Source: a virus
Taxonomy: Duplodnaviria; Caudoviricetes
DNA: 64,000 nt
IMG/VR virus record: IMGVR_UViG_3300037470_000569
Coordinates: 16,679-80,678 of that record
Reading direction: 5' to 3' (one strand)
Shown: positions 35,812 to 59,160 of the stretch, one piece after another
How the letters are laid out: each line of letters starts with the position of its first letter
Position numbering within the stretch: position 1 is the first letter of the stretch
Position numbers and translations under genes: made by a program
The notes under the pieces: generated by a model
Databases searched by the model: none
The model's input: the letters and a program-made list of their open reading frames with translations, nothing else
Told to the model about the DNA's origin: nothing

Positions 35812-35914
35812 TGGACCTGCAGGGAATCGAACCCCGTGATCTTCCCAACCTCACGTCACGTACGTCACGCGAACGACGCTCGCCCCAGCAGGGAATCAGG
35901 ACCTACCTAGGCCC
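35812..35914 (-). ncRNA. 103-nt tRNA-Ala/tmRNA-TLD-like RNA (putative)
   Basis: Acceptor GGGCCTA/CAGGTCC-A with G3.U70, T arm CGGGG-TTCGATT-CCCTG, helix TTCCC/GGGAA. Confidence 0.5.
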
Positions 35915-41143: not shown

Positions 41144-41172
41144 TTGACTCAACGGTACGACTCAGTTAGATT
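41144..41172 (+). promoter_or_regulatory. SigA-type promoter for the Y RNA-ro60 operon
   Basis: TTGACT-N17-TAGATT. Confidence 0.7.
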
Positions 41173-41331: not shown

Positions 41332-41395
41332 TTGCTCGGGTCGAAGGCATTCGGTTATCGGAGAAACACCGGCCGCCACGCACTTACTCGAGTAA
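41332..41395 (+). ncRNA. Short Y RNA-like gene A (no tRNA-like domain)
   Basis: Terminal stem CTCGGGT/ACTCGAG with GTCGAAG on the 5' strand and ACTTAC on the 3' strand. Confidence 0.7.
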
Positions 41396-41403
41396 CCCTT
41401 TTG

Positions 41404-41533
41404 CAGTTGGGTCGAATGAAGTCGATTACCACTTCTAATGGGGTTGTACCGGTTCGAGTCCGGTCGGCGGGCAACCGCCCGTAGCTTAATTGGCAGAGCA
41501 CCTAAACGTCGATTTCTCAAACTTACTCAACTG
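41404..41533 (+). ncRNA. yrlA: YrlA-type Y RNA B with permuted tRNA-like domain
   Basis: CAGTTGGGT/ACTCAACTG stem with GTCGAA; T arm ACCGG-TTCGAGT-CCGGT, capped acceptor GGCGG-GCAA-CCGCC, D arm GCTT-AATTGGCA-GAGC. Confidence 0.85.
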
Positions 41534-41560
41534 ACTCTCGGGTCAATAACACAGTTCGTC

Positions 41561-41633
41561 CGCCTAGGTCGAAGCACGTCGGTTATCTCTCTTTATCAGT
41601 GAACAAACCGGCACGTACCAACTTACTTAGGCG
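41561..41633 (+). ncRNA. Short Y RNA-like gene C
   Basis: CGCCTAGGT/ACTTAGGCG stem, GTCGAAG, CGGTT/AACCG, ACTTAC. Confidence 0.7.
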
Positions 41634-41643
41634 ATCCCATCTG

Positions 41644-41776
41644 GTCTCAGGCCGAAGATTGTCGGTTACCCGGCACCGCTCATGTAGGTTCGACTCCTGC
41701 CGCTCCGACTAACATCGGGGTGTCGTCCAACGGTAGGACGGCGGTTTATATCGGCTGTCACACACTTGCCTGAGGC
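41644..41776 (+). ncRNA. yrlA: YrlA-type Y RNA D with permuted tRNA-like domain
   Basis: GTCTCAGGC/GCCTGAGGC stem with GCCGAAG; T arm GTAGG-TTCGACT-CCTGC, acceptor hairpin, D arm GTCC-AACGGTA-GGAC. Confidence 0.85.
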
Positions 41777-41824
41777 TAGAAACAACTAAGACACATAACC
41801 TCACATTTGAGGTCGAAAGGAGAT

Positions 41825-43528
41825 ATGATGACGGATCCACTCCGCAGCTTCTCAACGCGGTCCACCCCGCAGACCCGGCGCGATCCGACGCGATCTGATC
41901 AGGTTCGCAACTCAGCTGGAGGCTATGTCTTCCAGGTCGATGAGTGGTCACGCCTTCGGCGTTTCCTTGTGCTGGGTACAGATGGTGGTACTTACTACGC
42001 CACCGAGGCTGCTCTGACGCTGGAGAACGCGCAGTTCGTAGTCAAGCTCGTGAACCGCGATCGTGAGACCGGTTTGCGCGTCGTCGAGGAGTTGCGGATC
42101 GTCTCTCTCGAGAACATCGCACCTCGTCAGAAGCCGACGCTCTTCACGCTCGCGATTGCCGCTAGCGCGTCCGACGCCGTCGTGCGTCGTGCCGCACTCG
42201 ATGCGCTTCCCGAGATCTGCCGCACGGGAACGATGCTCTTCAACTTCATCGGGTACGTGCAGCAGTTCCGTGGTTGGGGTCCGTCACTTCGCAAGGCGGT
42301 TGCCCGCTGGTACACCGAGAAGCCGATCGATCGACTTGCTTTGCAGGTCGTGAAGTATCGGCAGCGTGACGGCTGGAGCCACCGTGATCTTCTACGGAAA
42401 GCTCACCCCACGACGACTGATCCGGCACGTGATGCGCTCTTTAAGTGGATCACGCATCGCAATGAATTCTGGACGACGCACGGTGACTGGACCGTCGAGA
42501 CGACGCACGGTGACTGGACCGTCGAGCTGCCCGATCTCGTGCTTGGCTTTGAGAACCTCTCACACGTCGCGTCACTGAAGCCGCGCGGAGTCGTAGCCTC
42601 GATTCAGGACTCGAATCTTCCGTGGGAGGCCGTGCCCGACGAGTATCTGCGGATGCCCGAGGTGCTGGAGGCGCTCATCCCGAACATGGGACTGACCGCC
42701 CTCACCCGGCAGTTCGGTCGCATCGCCTCAACTGGTCACATGACGCCGGGTTCCTCACTCGAGAAGCTCGTGCTGAAGCGACTCCACGTACCGAGTGCCG
42801 GCGATGAGAAGTTCATCGGTCAGTTCCTCGCGAAGAACTCGAACGCGTATGTCCAGTCACGGGTGCATCCCTTCCAGATGCTGCTCGCGATGACGACCTA
42901 CCAGGCCGGACACGGTGTGAAGGGGAAGCTCAACTGGAAGCCTACCAGTCGCATCGTAGATGCTCTGGATGCTGGTTTCTACGCCGCCTTTGGGTCTGTA
43001 CCCAAGTCCGATAAGCGGACGCTAGTGGCACTGGATGTCTCGGGTTCGATGGGCTGGGGCAACCTACTCAACACACACATCACGCCTCGAGTCGCGTCCG
43101 CCGCTATGGCGCTCATCACTCTACGCGCCAACGCCGATGTGCAGGTCACGGCATTCAGTCACAAGCTCATCCCCATCGACATCTCGCCGCGCCAGCGTCT
43201 GGATGACGTAGTGCGTAAGGTCTCAGGACTCGCGTTCGGTGGAACCGACTGTGCGCTGCCGATGGTGTATGCGCTTGAGAACAGACTTGAGATCGACACG
43301 TTCGTCGTGTACACCGACAACGAGACGTGGGCAGGTTCAGTCCATCCCGCTCAGGCACTTCGTCTGTATCGTGATAAGGTCAACCCGAACGCACGGCTCG
43401 CCGTCGTCGGTATGACCGCCACGGACTTCACGATCGCTGACCCGACCGACCCCGGCCAGTTGGACGTGGTTGGATTCGACGGTTCGGCACCGCGCGTCCT
43501 CCAGGACTTTAGCGAGGGCGTGCTATAA
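41825..43528 (+). CDS. rsr: Ro60/Rsr RNA-binding protein (TROVE + vWA)
   Basis: NSAGGYVF, RFLVLGTDGGTYY, KYRQRDGWSHRDLLRKAHP, MIDAS DVSGSM, TDNETW, VVGFD. Confidence 0.95.
   Translation: MMTDPLRSFSTRSTPQTRRDPTRSDQVRNSAGGYVFQVDEWSRLRRFLVLGTDGGTYYATEAALTLENAQFVVKLVNRDRETGLRVVEELRIVSLENIAPRQKPTLFTLAIAASASDAVVRRAALDALPEICRTGTMLFNFIGYVQQFRGWGPSLRKAVARWYTEKPIDRLALQVVKYRQRDGWSHRDLLRKAHPTTTDPARDALFKWITHRNEFWTTHGDWTVETTHGDWTVELPDLVLGFENLSHVASLKPRGVVASIQDSNLPWEAVPDEYLRMPEVLEALIPNMGLTALTRQFGRIASTGHMTPGSSLEKLVLKRLHVPSAGDEKFIGQFLAKNSNAYVQSRVHPFQMLLAMTTYQAGHGVKGKLNWKPTSRIVDALDAGFYAAFGSVPKSDKRTLVALDVSGSMGWGNLLNTHITPRVASAAMALITLRANADVQVTAFSHKLIPIDISPRQRLDDVVRKVSGLAFGGTDCALPMVYALENRLEIDTFVVYTDNETWAGSVHPAQALRLYRDKVNPNARLAVVGMTATDFTIADPTDPGQLDVVGFDGSAPRVLQDFSEGVL
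42473..42526 (+). repeat. Perfect 27-bp tandem duplication inside ro60
   Basis: ACGACGCACGGTGACTGGACCGTCGAG twice, encoding TTHGDWTVE twice. Confidence 0.9.
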
Positions 43529-43547
43529 GAAAAGAAGTAGAGTTCAC

Positions 43548-43739
43548 GGGCGTCTCTGCGGAAGGGAAGGCAGAAGACAACTTGGTGTCATAGGCTGTTG
43601 AACTGTCCTAACCGAAAGGCTAACTCGTCAGACCCGAGGGACGCTGAGGTAAGTGAATCCCGGGTATACACGGGAAGGGTAGCGGGGAGACTAAGCCAAG
43701 TTAATGGTTCCGTCGGTTCGAGTCCGGCGACGCCCACTA
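43548..43739 (+). ncRNA. 189-nt tRNA-shaped RNA with an insertion of about 108 nt in place of the anticodon loop
   Basis: GGGCGTC/GACGCCC-A, D-like TCTGC/GCAGA, AACTTGGT/GCCAAGTT, T arm GTCGG-TTCGAGT-CCGGC. Confidence 0.75.
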
Positions 43740-44195
43740 AAGAAACCTAGGAACCCTAGGCATGTGATACGTATCGTCGGACACTGTAGTGGCCACTATT
43801 GTTCGAAGCGTGTCCTTTACCGGGGTTGTGAGTCGTGTAGCAGGTAAGAGTCGGAAGTGTGAAGCTGCATAGCTTCCGATCGCTCACTCGATCGCAAGTT
43901 GAAGTTTTAAGATCTCGAGAGTTGATTACACACTTTACAACCCAAATAAGCACTCCCACGGAGCACGACTCTGGATGAGTGATGAGGGATTGTGAGTATG
44001 CTATGTAGCTTTATCCGACGAGTGTGGTGGCTTGGGCCCACCTCGAGGAGCGTGCACCGAGCCGTTGAGAGTCCTTCATCTTTCGGAGAGGTGAGGGACT
44101 CTCCGGCCGGTGCTGTTGCAACTGAGAGAAACACAACGGTGTAGACTACGACTAACACAACACGTTCGATACTCCATCTCAACAGAGGGAACACC

Positions 44196-58117: not shown

Positions 58118-59160
58118 TAGATAAGAAGGTCGCACTCATCACGACCACCATCAACGTTCCCACCGTACTGGAACGGTACGTGATTGACTGGAAGCGCGAC
58201 TCCGACGAAGATCTCGAGATCATTGTGGCCGGCGATGTTCAAACCCCGACTGAGGCTCAGGAGTACGTCGAAGAGACGCTCGACGGCGCATACATCGGTA
58301 TTAACACGCCAAACGCGACGCGTTGGCGAAGCCATGATGTTATCGGTCTTCGCTCAATTCAGCGCCGCAACCTCGCTCTACTTCACGCCATTTCAATCGG
58401 CGCTGATGTGATCATCACGGTTGACGACGATAACTCGCCGAGCGAGCACTATGTGCGACGCATGCTTGATGAGTTGTATTGCGCGCGTCAATCTTTGTGG
58501 ACTTCACCTAACGGTTGGTTCAACCCGGGCGGTCTACTCAGCCCGCCAACCTGGGCTCGTGGCTTCCCAATTCATGAGCGATCGACTACACCAGGCGTGA
58601 TGCTCGGTGTTCGTGGGCCGACTGATGTTGATTCAGTTGCGGTGGTCAATGGTTTAACCACCGGTGATCCTGATGTTGACGCATTCGAGCGACTTGCGAA
58701 TAAGCCATGGGCGACACACGTGATGGCTAGTCAGAACATGGTGCTCAATGCTGGCACATGGGCACCGATCAATACGCAGAACACGGGATTCGTACGCATC
58801 GTCGCGCCACTCTTTCAGGTCATGTGCGGTGTCGGTCGGTACGATGATATCCTCGCATCGTACGTTGCTCGTGCTGTGTTTGATTCATTTCACGTGCATG
58901 TCAGCTATGGTCACCCGACGACGCACTCGGTGCGCAATGAGCACAACCTCATCACCGATCTCGAACGTGAGCTGTTCGGTTACCGAATCACACTCGAGTT
59001 CTGCGAGCGACTACGCTCGGCGACGATGGTCGGTAGTGTCGTCAACCGACTTGCTGATGCATATGAACTCGTGAGAGATCTGCTGCCAGCTCATACCCAA
59101 GATGCGAATGATGTGTGGATTGACGACGTCAACACCGCACTCAAAGAGGGAGATCATTGA
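58114..59160 (+). CDS. RGP/STELLO-like GT-A protein (NDP-sugar mutase-like)
   Basis: ITTTINVP, RRNL.LL.A, TVDDDN, GDPDVDA, NTQNT, GRYDDI. Confidence 0.7.
   Translation: MIDKKVALITTTINVPTVLERYVIDWKRDSDEDLEIIVAGDVQTPTEAQEYVEETLDGAYIGINTPNATRWRSHDVIGLRSIQRRNLALLHAISIGADVIITVDDDNSPSEHYVRRMLDELYCARQSLWTSPNGWFNPGGLLSPPTWARGFPIHERSTTPGVMLGVRGPTDVDSVAVVNGLTTGDPDVDAFERLANKPWATHVMASQNMVLNAGTWAPINTQNTGFVRIVAPLFQVMCGVGRYDDILASYVARAVFDSFHVHVSYGHPTTHSVRNEHNLITDLERELFGYRITLEFCERLRSATMVGSVVNRLADAYELVRDLLPAHTQDANDVWIDDVNTALKEGDH

What the first reader, a model, noticed from the sequence alone, without database searches (positions are those of the whole stretch)
43548..43739. Unassigned 189-nt tRNA-shaped RNA directly downstream of ro60
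Seen: a perfect 7-bp acceptor GGGCGTC/GACGCCC followed by A-CTA, a D-like hairpin TCTGC/GCAGA, a canonical T arm, and an 8-bp anticodon-position stem AACTTGGT/GCCAAGTT. That stem encloses about 108 nt of structured insert: GTCC/GGAC closing a CC-GAAA-GG and a CTCG/CGAG hairpin, and CGCTG/TAGCG closing TCCCG/CGGGA. It lacks G3.U70 and a tag ORF, so it is not tmRNA, and it is not permuted, so it is not YrlA. No simple splice gives a canonical anticodon loop. Two segments (GGGACGCTGAGGTAAG and GAAGG...GAGACTA) echo group I intron Q/R motifs, but the P7 partner, P8 and P9 are absent. Inference: a new tRNA-scaffolded ncRNA class or an intron relic working with Ro60.
Basis: partly seen in the sequence, partly recalled or inferred. 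Interest (0 to 1): 0.85.

Follow-up and report, generated by a model that had tools for sequence, protein, structure and literature searches.

The report
tRNA-derived phage RNA with large insert
Just after this uncultured phage's Ro60 gene lies a real, conserved gene for a 189-base RNA built on a valine-tRNA frame whose anticodon loop is replaced by a folded ~105-base insert. It fits no catalogued RNA family. Its tie to Ro60 is weaker than it looks, because the only related phage keeps it 14 kb away from Ro60.

Summary
Window 43548-43736 has a perfect 7-bp acceptor stem, a canonical T arm, a D-like hairpin and a long helix at the anticodon position that encloses about 108 nt.

It matches no Rfam family even at E<=10. 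ARAGORN calls no tRNA, intron-bearing tRNA or tmRNA.

One true homologue exists, in the closest relative phage (G001, 69% identity). All 28 modelled pairs are kept there, and nine of them changed on both sides. Homology stops 11 nt upstream and 4 nt downstream, and there are two 1-nt indels. So this is a discrete, structured, non-coding RNA gene.

The acceptor and T arm match a bacterial tRNA-Val. The insert sits at tRNA position 37/38. The "anticodon" differs between the two phages (GUC vs GGC), so it does not decode.

In G001 the gene is 14 kb from ro60, in a divergent operon, directly upstream of an Rv2179c-like 3'-5' exoribonuclease. Fifty other Ro60 phage records lack it.

It is also not one of the tRNA-shaped Y RNAs that I found beside ro60 in about 14 of 71 other phages. 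This scan had already found those on other DNA. The candidate lacks their Ro60 docking helix.

Verdict: a new, narrow tRNA-scaffold RNA family. Its function is unknown and its Ro60 partnership is unproven.

The parts
43537..43547 (+). conserved 5' leader (GT-A/T-GAGTTCA-N)
   Evidence: 9 of 11 identical to G001, whereas the flank further upstream is 4 of 27. In G001 it overlaps the stop codon of an unrelated ORF.
43548..43554 (+). acceptor stem, 5' strand (GGGCGTC)
   Evidence: Perfect 7 bp with 43729-35. Identical in G001. Same as a bacterial tRNA-Val(UAC) acceptor.
43555..43574 (+). D-like hairpin abutting the acceptor (stem 43555-58/43571-74, loop with GGG)
   Evidence: 4 pairs kept in G001, one changed on both sides (T:A to G:C). 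The fifth pair, C59:G70, is broken in G001.
43580..43586 (+). anticodon-position helix, 5' strand
   Evidence: 7 bp kept in G001 with 3 double compensatory changes. Resembles the tRNA-Val anticodon stem ACUGG/CCAGU.
43587..43590 (+). anticodon-like G-N-C-A (tRNA positions 34-37)
   Evidence: GUC in G000 and GGC in G001. N35 co-varies with the loop of hairpin 2 (43663-65), which suggests a 3-bp pseudoknot (inference).
43591..43694 (+). insert body replacing the rest of the anticodon loop
   Evidence: It contains two supported hairpins, two conserved single-stranded blocks and a variable linker at 43639-57.
43589..43618 (+). conserved block CATAGGCTGTT-S-AAC-Y-GTCCTA..CGAAAG
   Evidence: Near-invariant between the two phages. 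CGAAAG is a perfect GNCGAANG in G001 and one letter off in G000, but it is not set in a helix.
43624..43638 (+). hairpin 1 (CTCG/CGAG)
   Evidence: The stem is kept in G001 (CTCGG/CCGAG) around a loop of different sequence and length.
43658..43675 (+). hairpin 2 (TCCCG-8 nt-CGGGA)
   Evidence: G001 has CGTCC/GGACG: 4 of 5 pairs changed on both sides and all remain paired.
43676..43692 (+). conserved block AGGGTAGCGGGGAGACT
   Evidence: 17 of 17 identical in G001. No conserved partner strand was found.
43695..43701 (+). anticodon-position helix, 3' strand
   Evidence: Pairs with 43580-86.
43712..43728 (+). T arm (5-bp stem, loop TTCGAGT)
   Evidence: Canonical. It is the only part of the candidate recognised by the tRNA-shaped Y RNA model R1 (13.4 bits). 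U.G becomes G.U in G001.
43729..43739 (+). acceptor 3' strand, discriminator A, trailer CTA (no encoded CCA)
   Evidence: ACTA is identical in G001.
41807..43528 (+). ro60 (context, not shown to be a partner)
   Evidence: Pfam TROVE 8e-35 and vWA_Ro60 1e-63. Its stop codon is 19 nt before the RNA.
41332..41772 (+). array of Y-RNA-like units upstream of ro60 (context)
   Evidence: Rfam YrlA below threshold at 41419-41518 (33.4 bits) and 41659-41764 (24.6 bits). Docking motifs are visible.

Best explanation
Shown:
- This is a stand-alone gene for a structured small RNA that evolved from a tRNA-Val-type gene.
- It keeps the acceptor/T-arm minihelix and a D-like hairpin.
- Its anticodon loop is interrupted after position 37 by about 105 nt that fold into at least two hairpins and carry two strongly conserved single-stranded blocks.
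- It cannot decode. The anticodon-like triplet differs between the two known copies while the acceptor is identical, and the core junctions are enlarged.

Inferred:
- The RNA is cut out of a polycistronic phage transcript by the host's tRNA end-processing enzymes: RNase P at G43548, then 3' trimming and CCA addition after A43736.
- The tRNA frame serves as a processing and stability handle. The insert is the working part, and most likely binds a protein of RNA surveillance or decay.

In this phage the RNA is co-transcribed with ro60. In the relative it is co-transcribed with a 3'-5' exoribonuclease. Which protein it binds, if any, is not known.
For: Structure and conservation:
- The homologue G001:58258-58449(-) was found by BLAST and aligned.
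- 28 of 28 modelled pairs are kept, 9 with changes on both sides, against 0-1 in slid controls.
- Paired and unpaired columns diverge equally: 38/56 and 94/136 identical. Pairing, not sequence, is what is preserved.
- Homology is confined to -11..+192, with two 1-nt indels. That excludes coding.

tRNA-Val origin:
- The T arm plus acceptor 3' strand exactly match a tRNA-Val(UAC) in genome contigs, and the anticodon stems are similar.

Genomic setting:
- In both phages the gene is packed between same-strand ORFs: 19 nt after the ro60 stop here; 7 nt after one ORF and 22 nt before the next in G001.
- A promoter-like site at 41144 has no + strand terminator before the RNA.
- The G001 neighbour is an Rv2179c-type 3'-5' exoribonuclease (PDB 4oke E 5.6e-10, phrog_2259 5e-25).

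Precedent:
Against: - Only two copies are known, so the fold of the insert is only partly resolved and covariation rests on a single pair of sequences.
- I picked the helices after seeing both sequences.
- There are no expression, end-mapping or binding data.
- MFE z-score is only -1.2.
- The D hairpin leaves no U8/N9 linker, and the junction strands are 5 and 10 nt. A tRNA-like L-shape, and hence RNase P and CCA-enzyme recognition, is assumed rather than shown.
- The two genomic contexts may be simply free intergenic slots.
Confidence: 0.6

Rival explanations
1. It is a Ro60 partner RNA, a divergent tRNA-shaped Y RNA. The tRNA frame is the effector module. The anticodon arm or the insert docks on Ro60 through a non-canonical site, for example the conserved CGAAAG.
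For: - It shares an operon with ro60 and four Y-like units in this phage.
- Both phages that carry it encode Ro60, while the terminase relatives G003 and G004 have neither.
- tRNA-shaped Y RNAs with the same overall wiring lie beside ro60 in about 14 of 71 other phage contigs.
- G001 carries a perfect GNCGAANG (GACGAAAG) in the insert.
- Ro60 is said to contact mainly that strand (PMC4201824).
Against: - In G001 it lies 14 kb from ro60 in a divergent operon.
- It is absent from whole records of 50 other Ro60 phages.
- Model R1 of the tRNA-shaped Y family aligns only its T arm, and Rfam YrlA gives no hit at E<=10.
- It has no bulged docking helix. The alternative UUGG/CCGA pairing is contradicted by covariation that supports UUGG/CCAA.
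- G001's own Y units use GNCGGAG while the element keeps CGAAAG.
- A 7-letter motif in 108 nt is expected by chance about 1 time in 5 (my estimate).
Confidence: 0.22
2. It is only a processing signal. A tRNA-like 'punctuation' element recruits RNase P and RNase Z to cut the polycistronic mRNA, and the insert is a passenger.
For: It is packed tightly between ORFs in both phages. The acceptor and T arm are the most conserved parts.
Against: The insert's hairpins are maintained by compensatory changes, and two blocks of 17-23 nt are nearly invariant. That is unnecessary for a mere cleavage signal. An ordinary tRNA or a minihelix would do.
Confidence: 0.08
3. It is an intron-bearing tRNA. The 105-nt insert at 37/38 is spliced out to give a working tRNA.
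For: The insert sits exactly after a G-U-G-N-C-A stretch that reads as positions 32-37 with U33 and A37, inside a tRNA-Val-like frame.
Against: - The anticodon would be GUC (Asp) here and GGC (Ala) in G001, on an identical Val-type acceptor with A73 and G3:C70.
- Positions 32 and 38 would pair.
- The 26-region and the variable region are enlarged to 5 and 10 nt.
- ARAGORN with introns allowed finds nothing.
Confidence: 0.04
4. It is a miniature tmRNA-like RNA. The frame GCU GUU GAA CUG UCC UAA (43594-43611), opened just after a UAG, would be a short tag.
For: The stop is kept as UAA here and UAG in G001, and the frame starts with an Ala codon.
Against: - G3:C70 instead of G3.U70.
- The three differences are two radical replacements (E to Q, L to P) plus the stop change, with no synonymous change.
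- There is no pseudoknot before the resume codon.
- ARAGORN tmRNA mode and Rfam find nothing.
Confidence: 0.03
5. It is a decaying tRNA pseudogene or a chance fold.
For: The family is tiny, MFE z is -1.2, and the core departs from canonical tRNA.
Against: All 18 substitutions in paired columns are compensatory. The element has moved between genomic sites as a sharply bounded unit and remains intact in both phages.
Confidence: 0.03

Closest known systems
tRNA-shaped (native-topology) Y RNAs beside phage ro60. I found no description in the papers I could search. This scan found them earlier on other DNA, and I re-derived them independently here (alignment A1, model R1).
   Same: Same end-to-end order as a tRNA, with free acceptor ends, a canonical T arm and an extension at the anticodon position. 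Encoded on the ro60 strand next to ro60 in this phage.
   Different: - Those RNAs are 97-146 nt and carry a loop-closed Ro60 docking helix (CUUGCCC-loop-GGGCCGAA) plus GUUAUC before the T arm.
- They have a canonical D arm, and the Rfam tRNA model scores them 40-53 bits.
- The candidate has none of these. Its insert is about 105 nt, and R1 aligns only its T arm.
YrlA, the bacterial and actinophage Y RNA (Rfam RF02553; Chen et al. 2014, PMC4201824; Wang et al. 2018, 10.1101/312249)
   Same: A tRNA mimic without an anticodon loop, with the anticodon stem prolonged into another module. A 7-bp acceptor is compatible with RNase P and CCA addition, as in M. smegmatis YrlA. Two weak YrlA-type units lie upstream of the same ro60.
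   Different: YrlA is circularly permuted: its ends lie in the Ro-binding stem and its acceptor is closed by a loop. It also carries GNCGAAN0-1G in that stem. The candidate has tRNA order and open acceptor ends, and RF02553 gives no match at E<=10.
tmRNA tRNA-like domain
   Same: An acceptor/T-arm minihelix whose two halves are separated by a long structured insert closed by a helix at the anticodon side.
   Different: No G3.U70, no credible tag frame, no pseudoknot series, and a stemmed D-like hairpin. Not called by ARAGORN or Rfam.
Bacterial tRNA genes with group I introns in the anticodon loop (tRNA-Leu UAA, tRNA-Ile of Azoarcus; my own knowledge)
   Same: A tRNA frame interrupted within the anticodon loop.
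   Different: Natural group I introns are about 200 nt or more and have a P3-P9 core. Here the insert is about 105 nt with no core and no Rfam match, and the exons do not make a consistent tRNA.

Membership tests
tRNA (RF00005 / ARAGORN) | Cloverleaf recognised by the covariance model or ARAGORN, with a 5-bp anticodon stem and a 7-nt loop | tested here: not met
   No RF00005 hit at E<=10 on 43400-44000. ARAGORN finds nothing, even with introns of 0-300 nt allowed.
tRNA (RF00005 / ARAGORN) | 7-bp acceptor stem contiguous with a canonical T arm, plus a discriminator base | tested here: met
   Identical to a tRNA-Val(UAC) 3' half.
tRNA (RF00005 / ARAGORN) | An anticodon consistent with the rest of the molecule across homologues | tested here: not met
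   GUC versus GGC on an identical acceptor.
YrlA (RF02553) | Permuted order: Ro stem 5' strand, T arm, loop-closed acceptor, D arm, Ro stem 3' strand | tested here: not met
   The order here is acceptor 5', D, helix, T, acceptor 3'. RF02553 gives no hit at E<=10, although it does hit 41419-41518 and 41659-41764.
YrlA (RF02553) | GNCGAAN0-1G motif in the terminal bulged helix | tested here: inconclusive
   GACGAAAG in G001 and ACCGAAAG here. It is not in a conserved helix, and the possible partner UUGG pairs elsewhere by covariation.
YrlA (RF02553) | Encoded within a few kb of ro60 | tested here: inconclusive
   19 nt from ro60 here. 14 kb away and in a divergent operon in G001.
   With filters off, only the T arm aligns (13.4 bits). 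Family members score 58-110 bits.
   The candidate's helix is a plain duplex (ACUUGGU/GCCAAGU here, GUCUGGU/GCCAGAC in G001).
tmRNA | G3.U70 alanine identity, resume codon with a tag ORF, pseudoknots | tested here: not met
   G3:C70. The 5-codon frame shows no coding constraint. ARAGORN -m and Rfam find nothing.
Group I intron in a tRNA | Conserved P3-P9 catalytic core, usually 200 nt or more | tested here: not met
   The insert is 105-108 nt. There is no Intron_gpI hit at E<=10. The 'Q-like' segment is not conserved in G001.

The most novel reading that the evidence does not exclude
The RNA founds a new class of phage tRNA-scaffold RNAs that plug into host RNA-decay machinery independently of the canonical Ro60 docking helix. 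The tRNA frame would give it tRNA-like processing and a CCA end. The conserved insert would recruit, gate or inhibit a 3'-5' exoribonuclease: the phage's own Rv2179c-type enzyme in G001, and a Ro60-associated nuclease in G000.
Probability: 0.15. Interest if true: 0.8.

Novelty: new variant of a known kind. Interest (0 to 1): 0.5.

Why it matters
Phage and bacterial tRNA mimics (tmRNA, YrlA, the tRNA-shaped Y RNAs) show that the tRNA fold is reused as a handle for other jobs. This RNA is a further, independent case: a tRNA-Val frame carries a conserved 105-nt module and moves as a unit between operons of related phages.

If its partner proves to be Ro60 or an exoribonuclease, it would widen the ways in which phages are known to steer RNA surveillance. 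If not, it is still a clean, testable example of how a tRNA gene turns into a new small RNA.

It also warns against inferring a partnership from adjacency in one genome.

Tried and rejected
Searches for a known family:
- Rfam at gathering threshold and at E<=10 found nothing on the element.
- ARAGORN in tRNA, intron, tmRNA and relaxed modes gave only junk at -ps80.

Searches for more homologues:
- nhmmer against 71 Ro60 loci found none.
- blastn 'distant' against GenBank phages matched only the ro60 part of the query.
- Four exact-block patterns over viral contigs, one over metagenome contigs (58) and one over genome contigs (64) returned only G001's own contig.
- Model R2 found nothing in 71 loci plus the window, terminase relatives G002-G006 (57), four GenBank Ro60 phages (78), 16 loci with distant homologues of the G001 exoribonuclease (100) and 50 whole Ro60 phage records (107).
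- I did not run R2 over the whole records behind loci L054-L073.

Readings rejected:
- 'Unpermuted YrlA': the ACUUGG...CCAAG helix looked like a docking helix, but covariation shows a plain duplex and R1 does not align it.
- A docking helix UUGG/CCGA formed with the CGAAAG block: not kept in G001.
- Leader AGUUCA pairing with UGAACU in the insert: not kept in G001.
- Hammerhead-like CUGA/GAAA order: wrong order, and not conserved.
- Similarity to RNase P RNA: recalled from memory only, so not used.

The stem-comparison script was too noisy to resolve the rest of the insert.

Full report
SETTING. The window is bases 16679-80678 of an 80.7-kb, about 99% complete IMG/VR virus record, G000. The ORF at 41807-43528 is a Ro60 protein (Pfam TROVE 8e-35, vWA_Ro60 1e-63). 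Its nearest cultured relatives are Ro60 proteins of Gordonia, Microbacterium, Mycobacterium and Streptomyces phages, at about 45% identity. A WhiB gene in the sister phage also points to an actinobacterial host. Upstream of ro60 lies an array of Y-RNA-like units. Two of them give sub-threshold Rfam YrlA matches, at 41419-41518 (33.4 bits) and 41659-41764 (24.6 bits). This agrees with notes by other readers of this scan.

THE OBSERVATION. A simple descriptor (T arm directly followed by a strand that closes a 7-bp acceptor 90-450 nt upstream) hits the window once, here. It hits reversed control sequence once in 0.54 Mb. Catalogue tools do not recognise the element. There is no Rfam match even at E<=10 and no ARAGORN call in any mode. 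The MFE is not unusual (z = -1.2).

A TRUE HOMOLOGUE. The closest relative is phage G001 (81.6 kb, direct terminal repeats, complete; Ro60 66% and terminase 77% identical). It carries the element at 58258-58449 on the minus strand. The alignment shows 69% identity within the element and 9/11 in an 11-nt leader. Identity drops to random levels beyond (4/27 upstream, 14/41 downstream). Two 1-nt indels rule out a protein-coding reading.

I modelled 28 base pairs. All are kept in both phages, and nine changed on both sides:
- three of seven pairs in the anticodon-position helix;
- four of five in hairpin 43658-75 (TCCCG/CGGGA becomes CGTCC/GGACG);
- one in the D stem;
- U.G to G.U in the T stem.

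Sliding the partners by 1-3 columns gives 0-1 such pairs. Paired and unpaired columns have diverged equally (38/56 vs 94/136 identical). Selection has therefore acted on pairing. Hairpin CTCG/CGAG is kept around a different loop. Caveat: this rests on two sequences, and I chose the helices after seeing both.

ORIGIN AND ANATOMY. The T arm plus acceptor 3' strand occur exactly in a bacterial tRNA-Val(UAC). That tRNA's acceptor 5' strand and anticodon stem (ACUGG/CCAGU) also resemble the candidate's (ACUUGG/CCAAGU). In tRNA numbering the sequence after the stem reads G32-U33-G34-N35-C36-A37. About 105 nt follow (43591-43695), then C38. So the insert sits at the 37/38 position of a tRNA-Val-like frame.

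The triplet is GUC here and GGC in G001, on an identical acceptor with A73 and G3:C70. The 26-region and the variable region are enlarged to 5 and 10 nt. The molecule is therefore not a decoding tRNA, spliced or not. N35 co-varies with the loop of hairpin 2 (43587-89 with 43663-65: GUC/GGU becomes GGC/GCC). This hints at a 3-bp pseudoknot, which I offer only as a hypothesis. Two blocks are nearly invariant and have no conserved partner: 43589-43618 (ending in CGAAAG) and 43676-92.

IS IT A Ro60 PARTNER? In favour:
- A promoter-like site at 41144, with no + strand terminator before the RNA, puts it in the same transcript as the Y array and ro60.
- Both phages that carry it have Ro60, while two more distant terminase relatives have neither.

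Against:
- In G001 the gene lies 14 kb from ro60, in the divergent operon upstream of WhiB and the terminase. It sits 7 nt after an unrelated ORF and 22 nt before an Rv2179c-type 3'-5' exoribonuclease.
- G000 lacks that nuclease.
- Model R2 of the element finds nothing in 71 Ro60 loci, four GenBank Ro60 phages, 50 whole Ro60 phage records, or 16 loci with distant homologues of the nuclease.
- Exact-block scans of viral, metagenome and genome collections return only G001's contig.

The element is thus a narrow, mobile gene that is tied to neither neighbour.

COMPARISON WITH tRNA-SHAPED Y RNAs. The same descriptor gave 41 hits in the 71 Ro60 loci, nearly all on the ro60 strand. The Rfam tRNA model scores many of them 40-53 bits despite 28-65-nt inserts at the anticodon loop. 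Their inserts carry the Y-RNA docking helix in inverted order, closed by a loop (CUUGCCC-loop-GGGCCGAA), followed by GUUAUC before the T arm.

An 18-sequence alignment shows abundant compensatory change in the acceptor, T and docking helices. Model R1 finds members scoring 58 bits or more in about 14 of 71 contigs. These are circular permutations of published YrlA. The papers I could read describe only the permuted form (PMC4201824; 10.1101/312249). This scan had already reported the layout on other DNA.

The candidate shares the wiring but not the defining parts. With filters off, R1 aligns only its T arm (13.4 bits). Its helix is a plain duplex with no bulged C. The tempting alternative pairing of UUGG with the CGAAAG block is contradicted by covariation. 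G001's own Y units use GNCGGAG while the element keeps CGAAAG. I therefore do not file it in that family.

MOST LIKELY MECHANISM. Shown: this is a conserved, structured, non-coding, tRNA-Val-derived RNA gene. Inferred: it is released from polycistronic transcripts by RNase P and 3' processing with CCA addition, as demonstrated for the 7-bp acceptor of M. smegmatis YrlA. The tRNA frame would act as a processing and stability handle, and the insert as a protein-binding module. Both neighbourhoods concern RNA 3'-end surveillance (Ro60 here, a DEDD exoribonuclease in G001). That is suggestive, but n = 2.

My odds:
- a stand-alone tRNA-scaffold RNA with an unidentified partner: 0.6;
- a divergent Ro60 partner: about 0.2;
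- a processing signal only: about 0.1;
- an intron-bearing tRNA, a mini-tmRNA, or decay/chance: a few percent each.

As a result, contigs with the closest homologues of the G001 nuclease could not be inspected. No expression or biochemical data exist for this uncultured phage.

Noticed in passing
L064 2317-2673; L006 2361-2621; L011 270-528; L012 2293-2416 and 2754-2851; L014 4793-5126; L028 5607-5940; L019, L020, L031, L034, L047, L049, L050, L073: tRNA-shaped Y RNAs occur beside phage ro60 in about 14 of 71 viral contigs. They have free acceptor ends, canonical D and T arms, and a loop-closed Ro60 docking helix plus GUUAUC in place of the anticodon loop. The Rfam tRNA model calls them tRNAs with 28-65-nt inserts. 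I did not find this layout in the YrlA papers I could read, but this scan reported it earlier on other DNA.
   Followed up: yes
L087 1747-1825 (Mycobacterium phage prophiGD43A-5, MW584167.1): The annotated 'tRNA-Thr (tgt)' overlaps the 5' half of a permuted YrlA-type unit, within an array of at least four such units upstream of ro60. It is probably a mis-annotation.
   Followed up: partly
L050 2822-2885: A simple phage Y-RNA-like unit (GGGCCGGAG...GGUUAUC...CAACUUGCCCG) passes the gathering score of the nematode stem-bulge RNA family RF01656 (38.5 vs 38 bits).
   Followed up: no
L074 873-1478 (-) = G001: A 201-aa Rv2179c-type 3'-5' exoribonuclease (PDB 4oke E 5.6e-10) lies directly downstream of the G001 copy of the RNA, followed by WhiB and the terminase. 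G000 has no homologue.
   Followed up: partly
L038 1676-1855 and L073 2650-2831: Two other ~180-nt elements have a T arm and a 7-bp acceptor closing long inserts, near ro60 of large phages. Neither R1 nor R2 matches them. Their nature is unknown.
   Followed up: no
window 43745-43761: A palindromic hairpin ACCTAGG-AAC-CCTAGG(C) sits 9 nt after the RNA. It scores as a terminator for the minus strand (T-run) and may also end the ro60 operon.
   Followed up: no
window 35812-35914 (-): The 'mini tmRNA-like' element noted by another reader has no full-length counterpart in G001, only 22-32-nt BLAST fragments.
   Followed up: partly
L086 and L089 (Gordonia phages GMA2 and Sixama): In these phages ro60 is followed directly by a cluster of 11-12 tRNA genes on the same strand. 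tRNA-type genes downstream of phage ro60 are therefore common and do not by themselves show a partnership.
   Followed up: no
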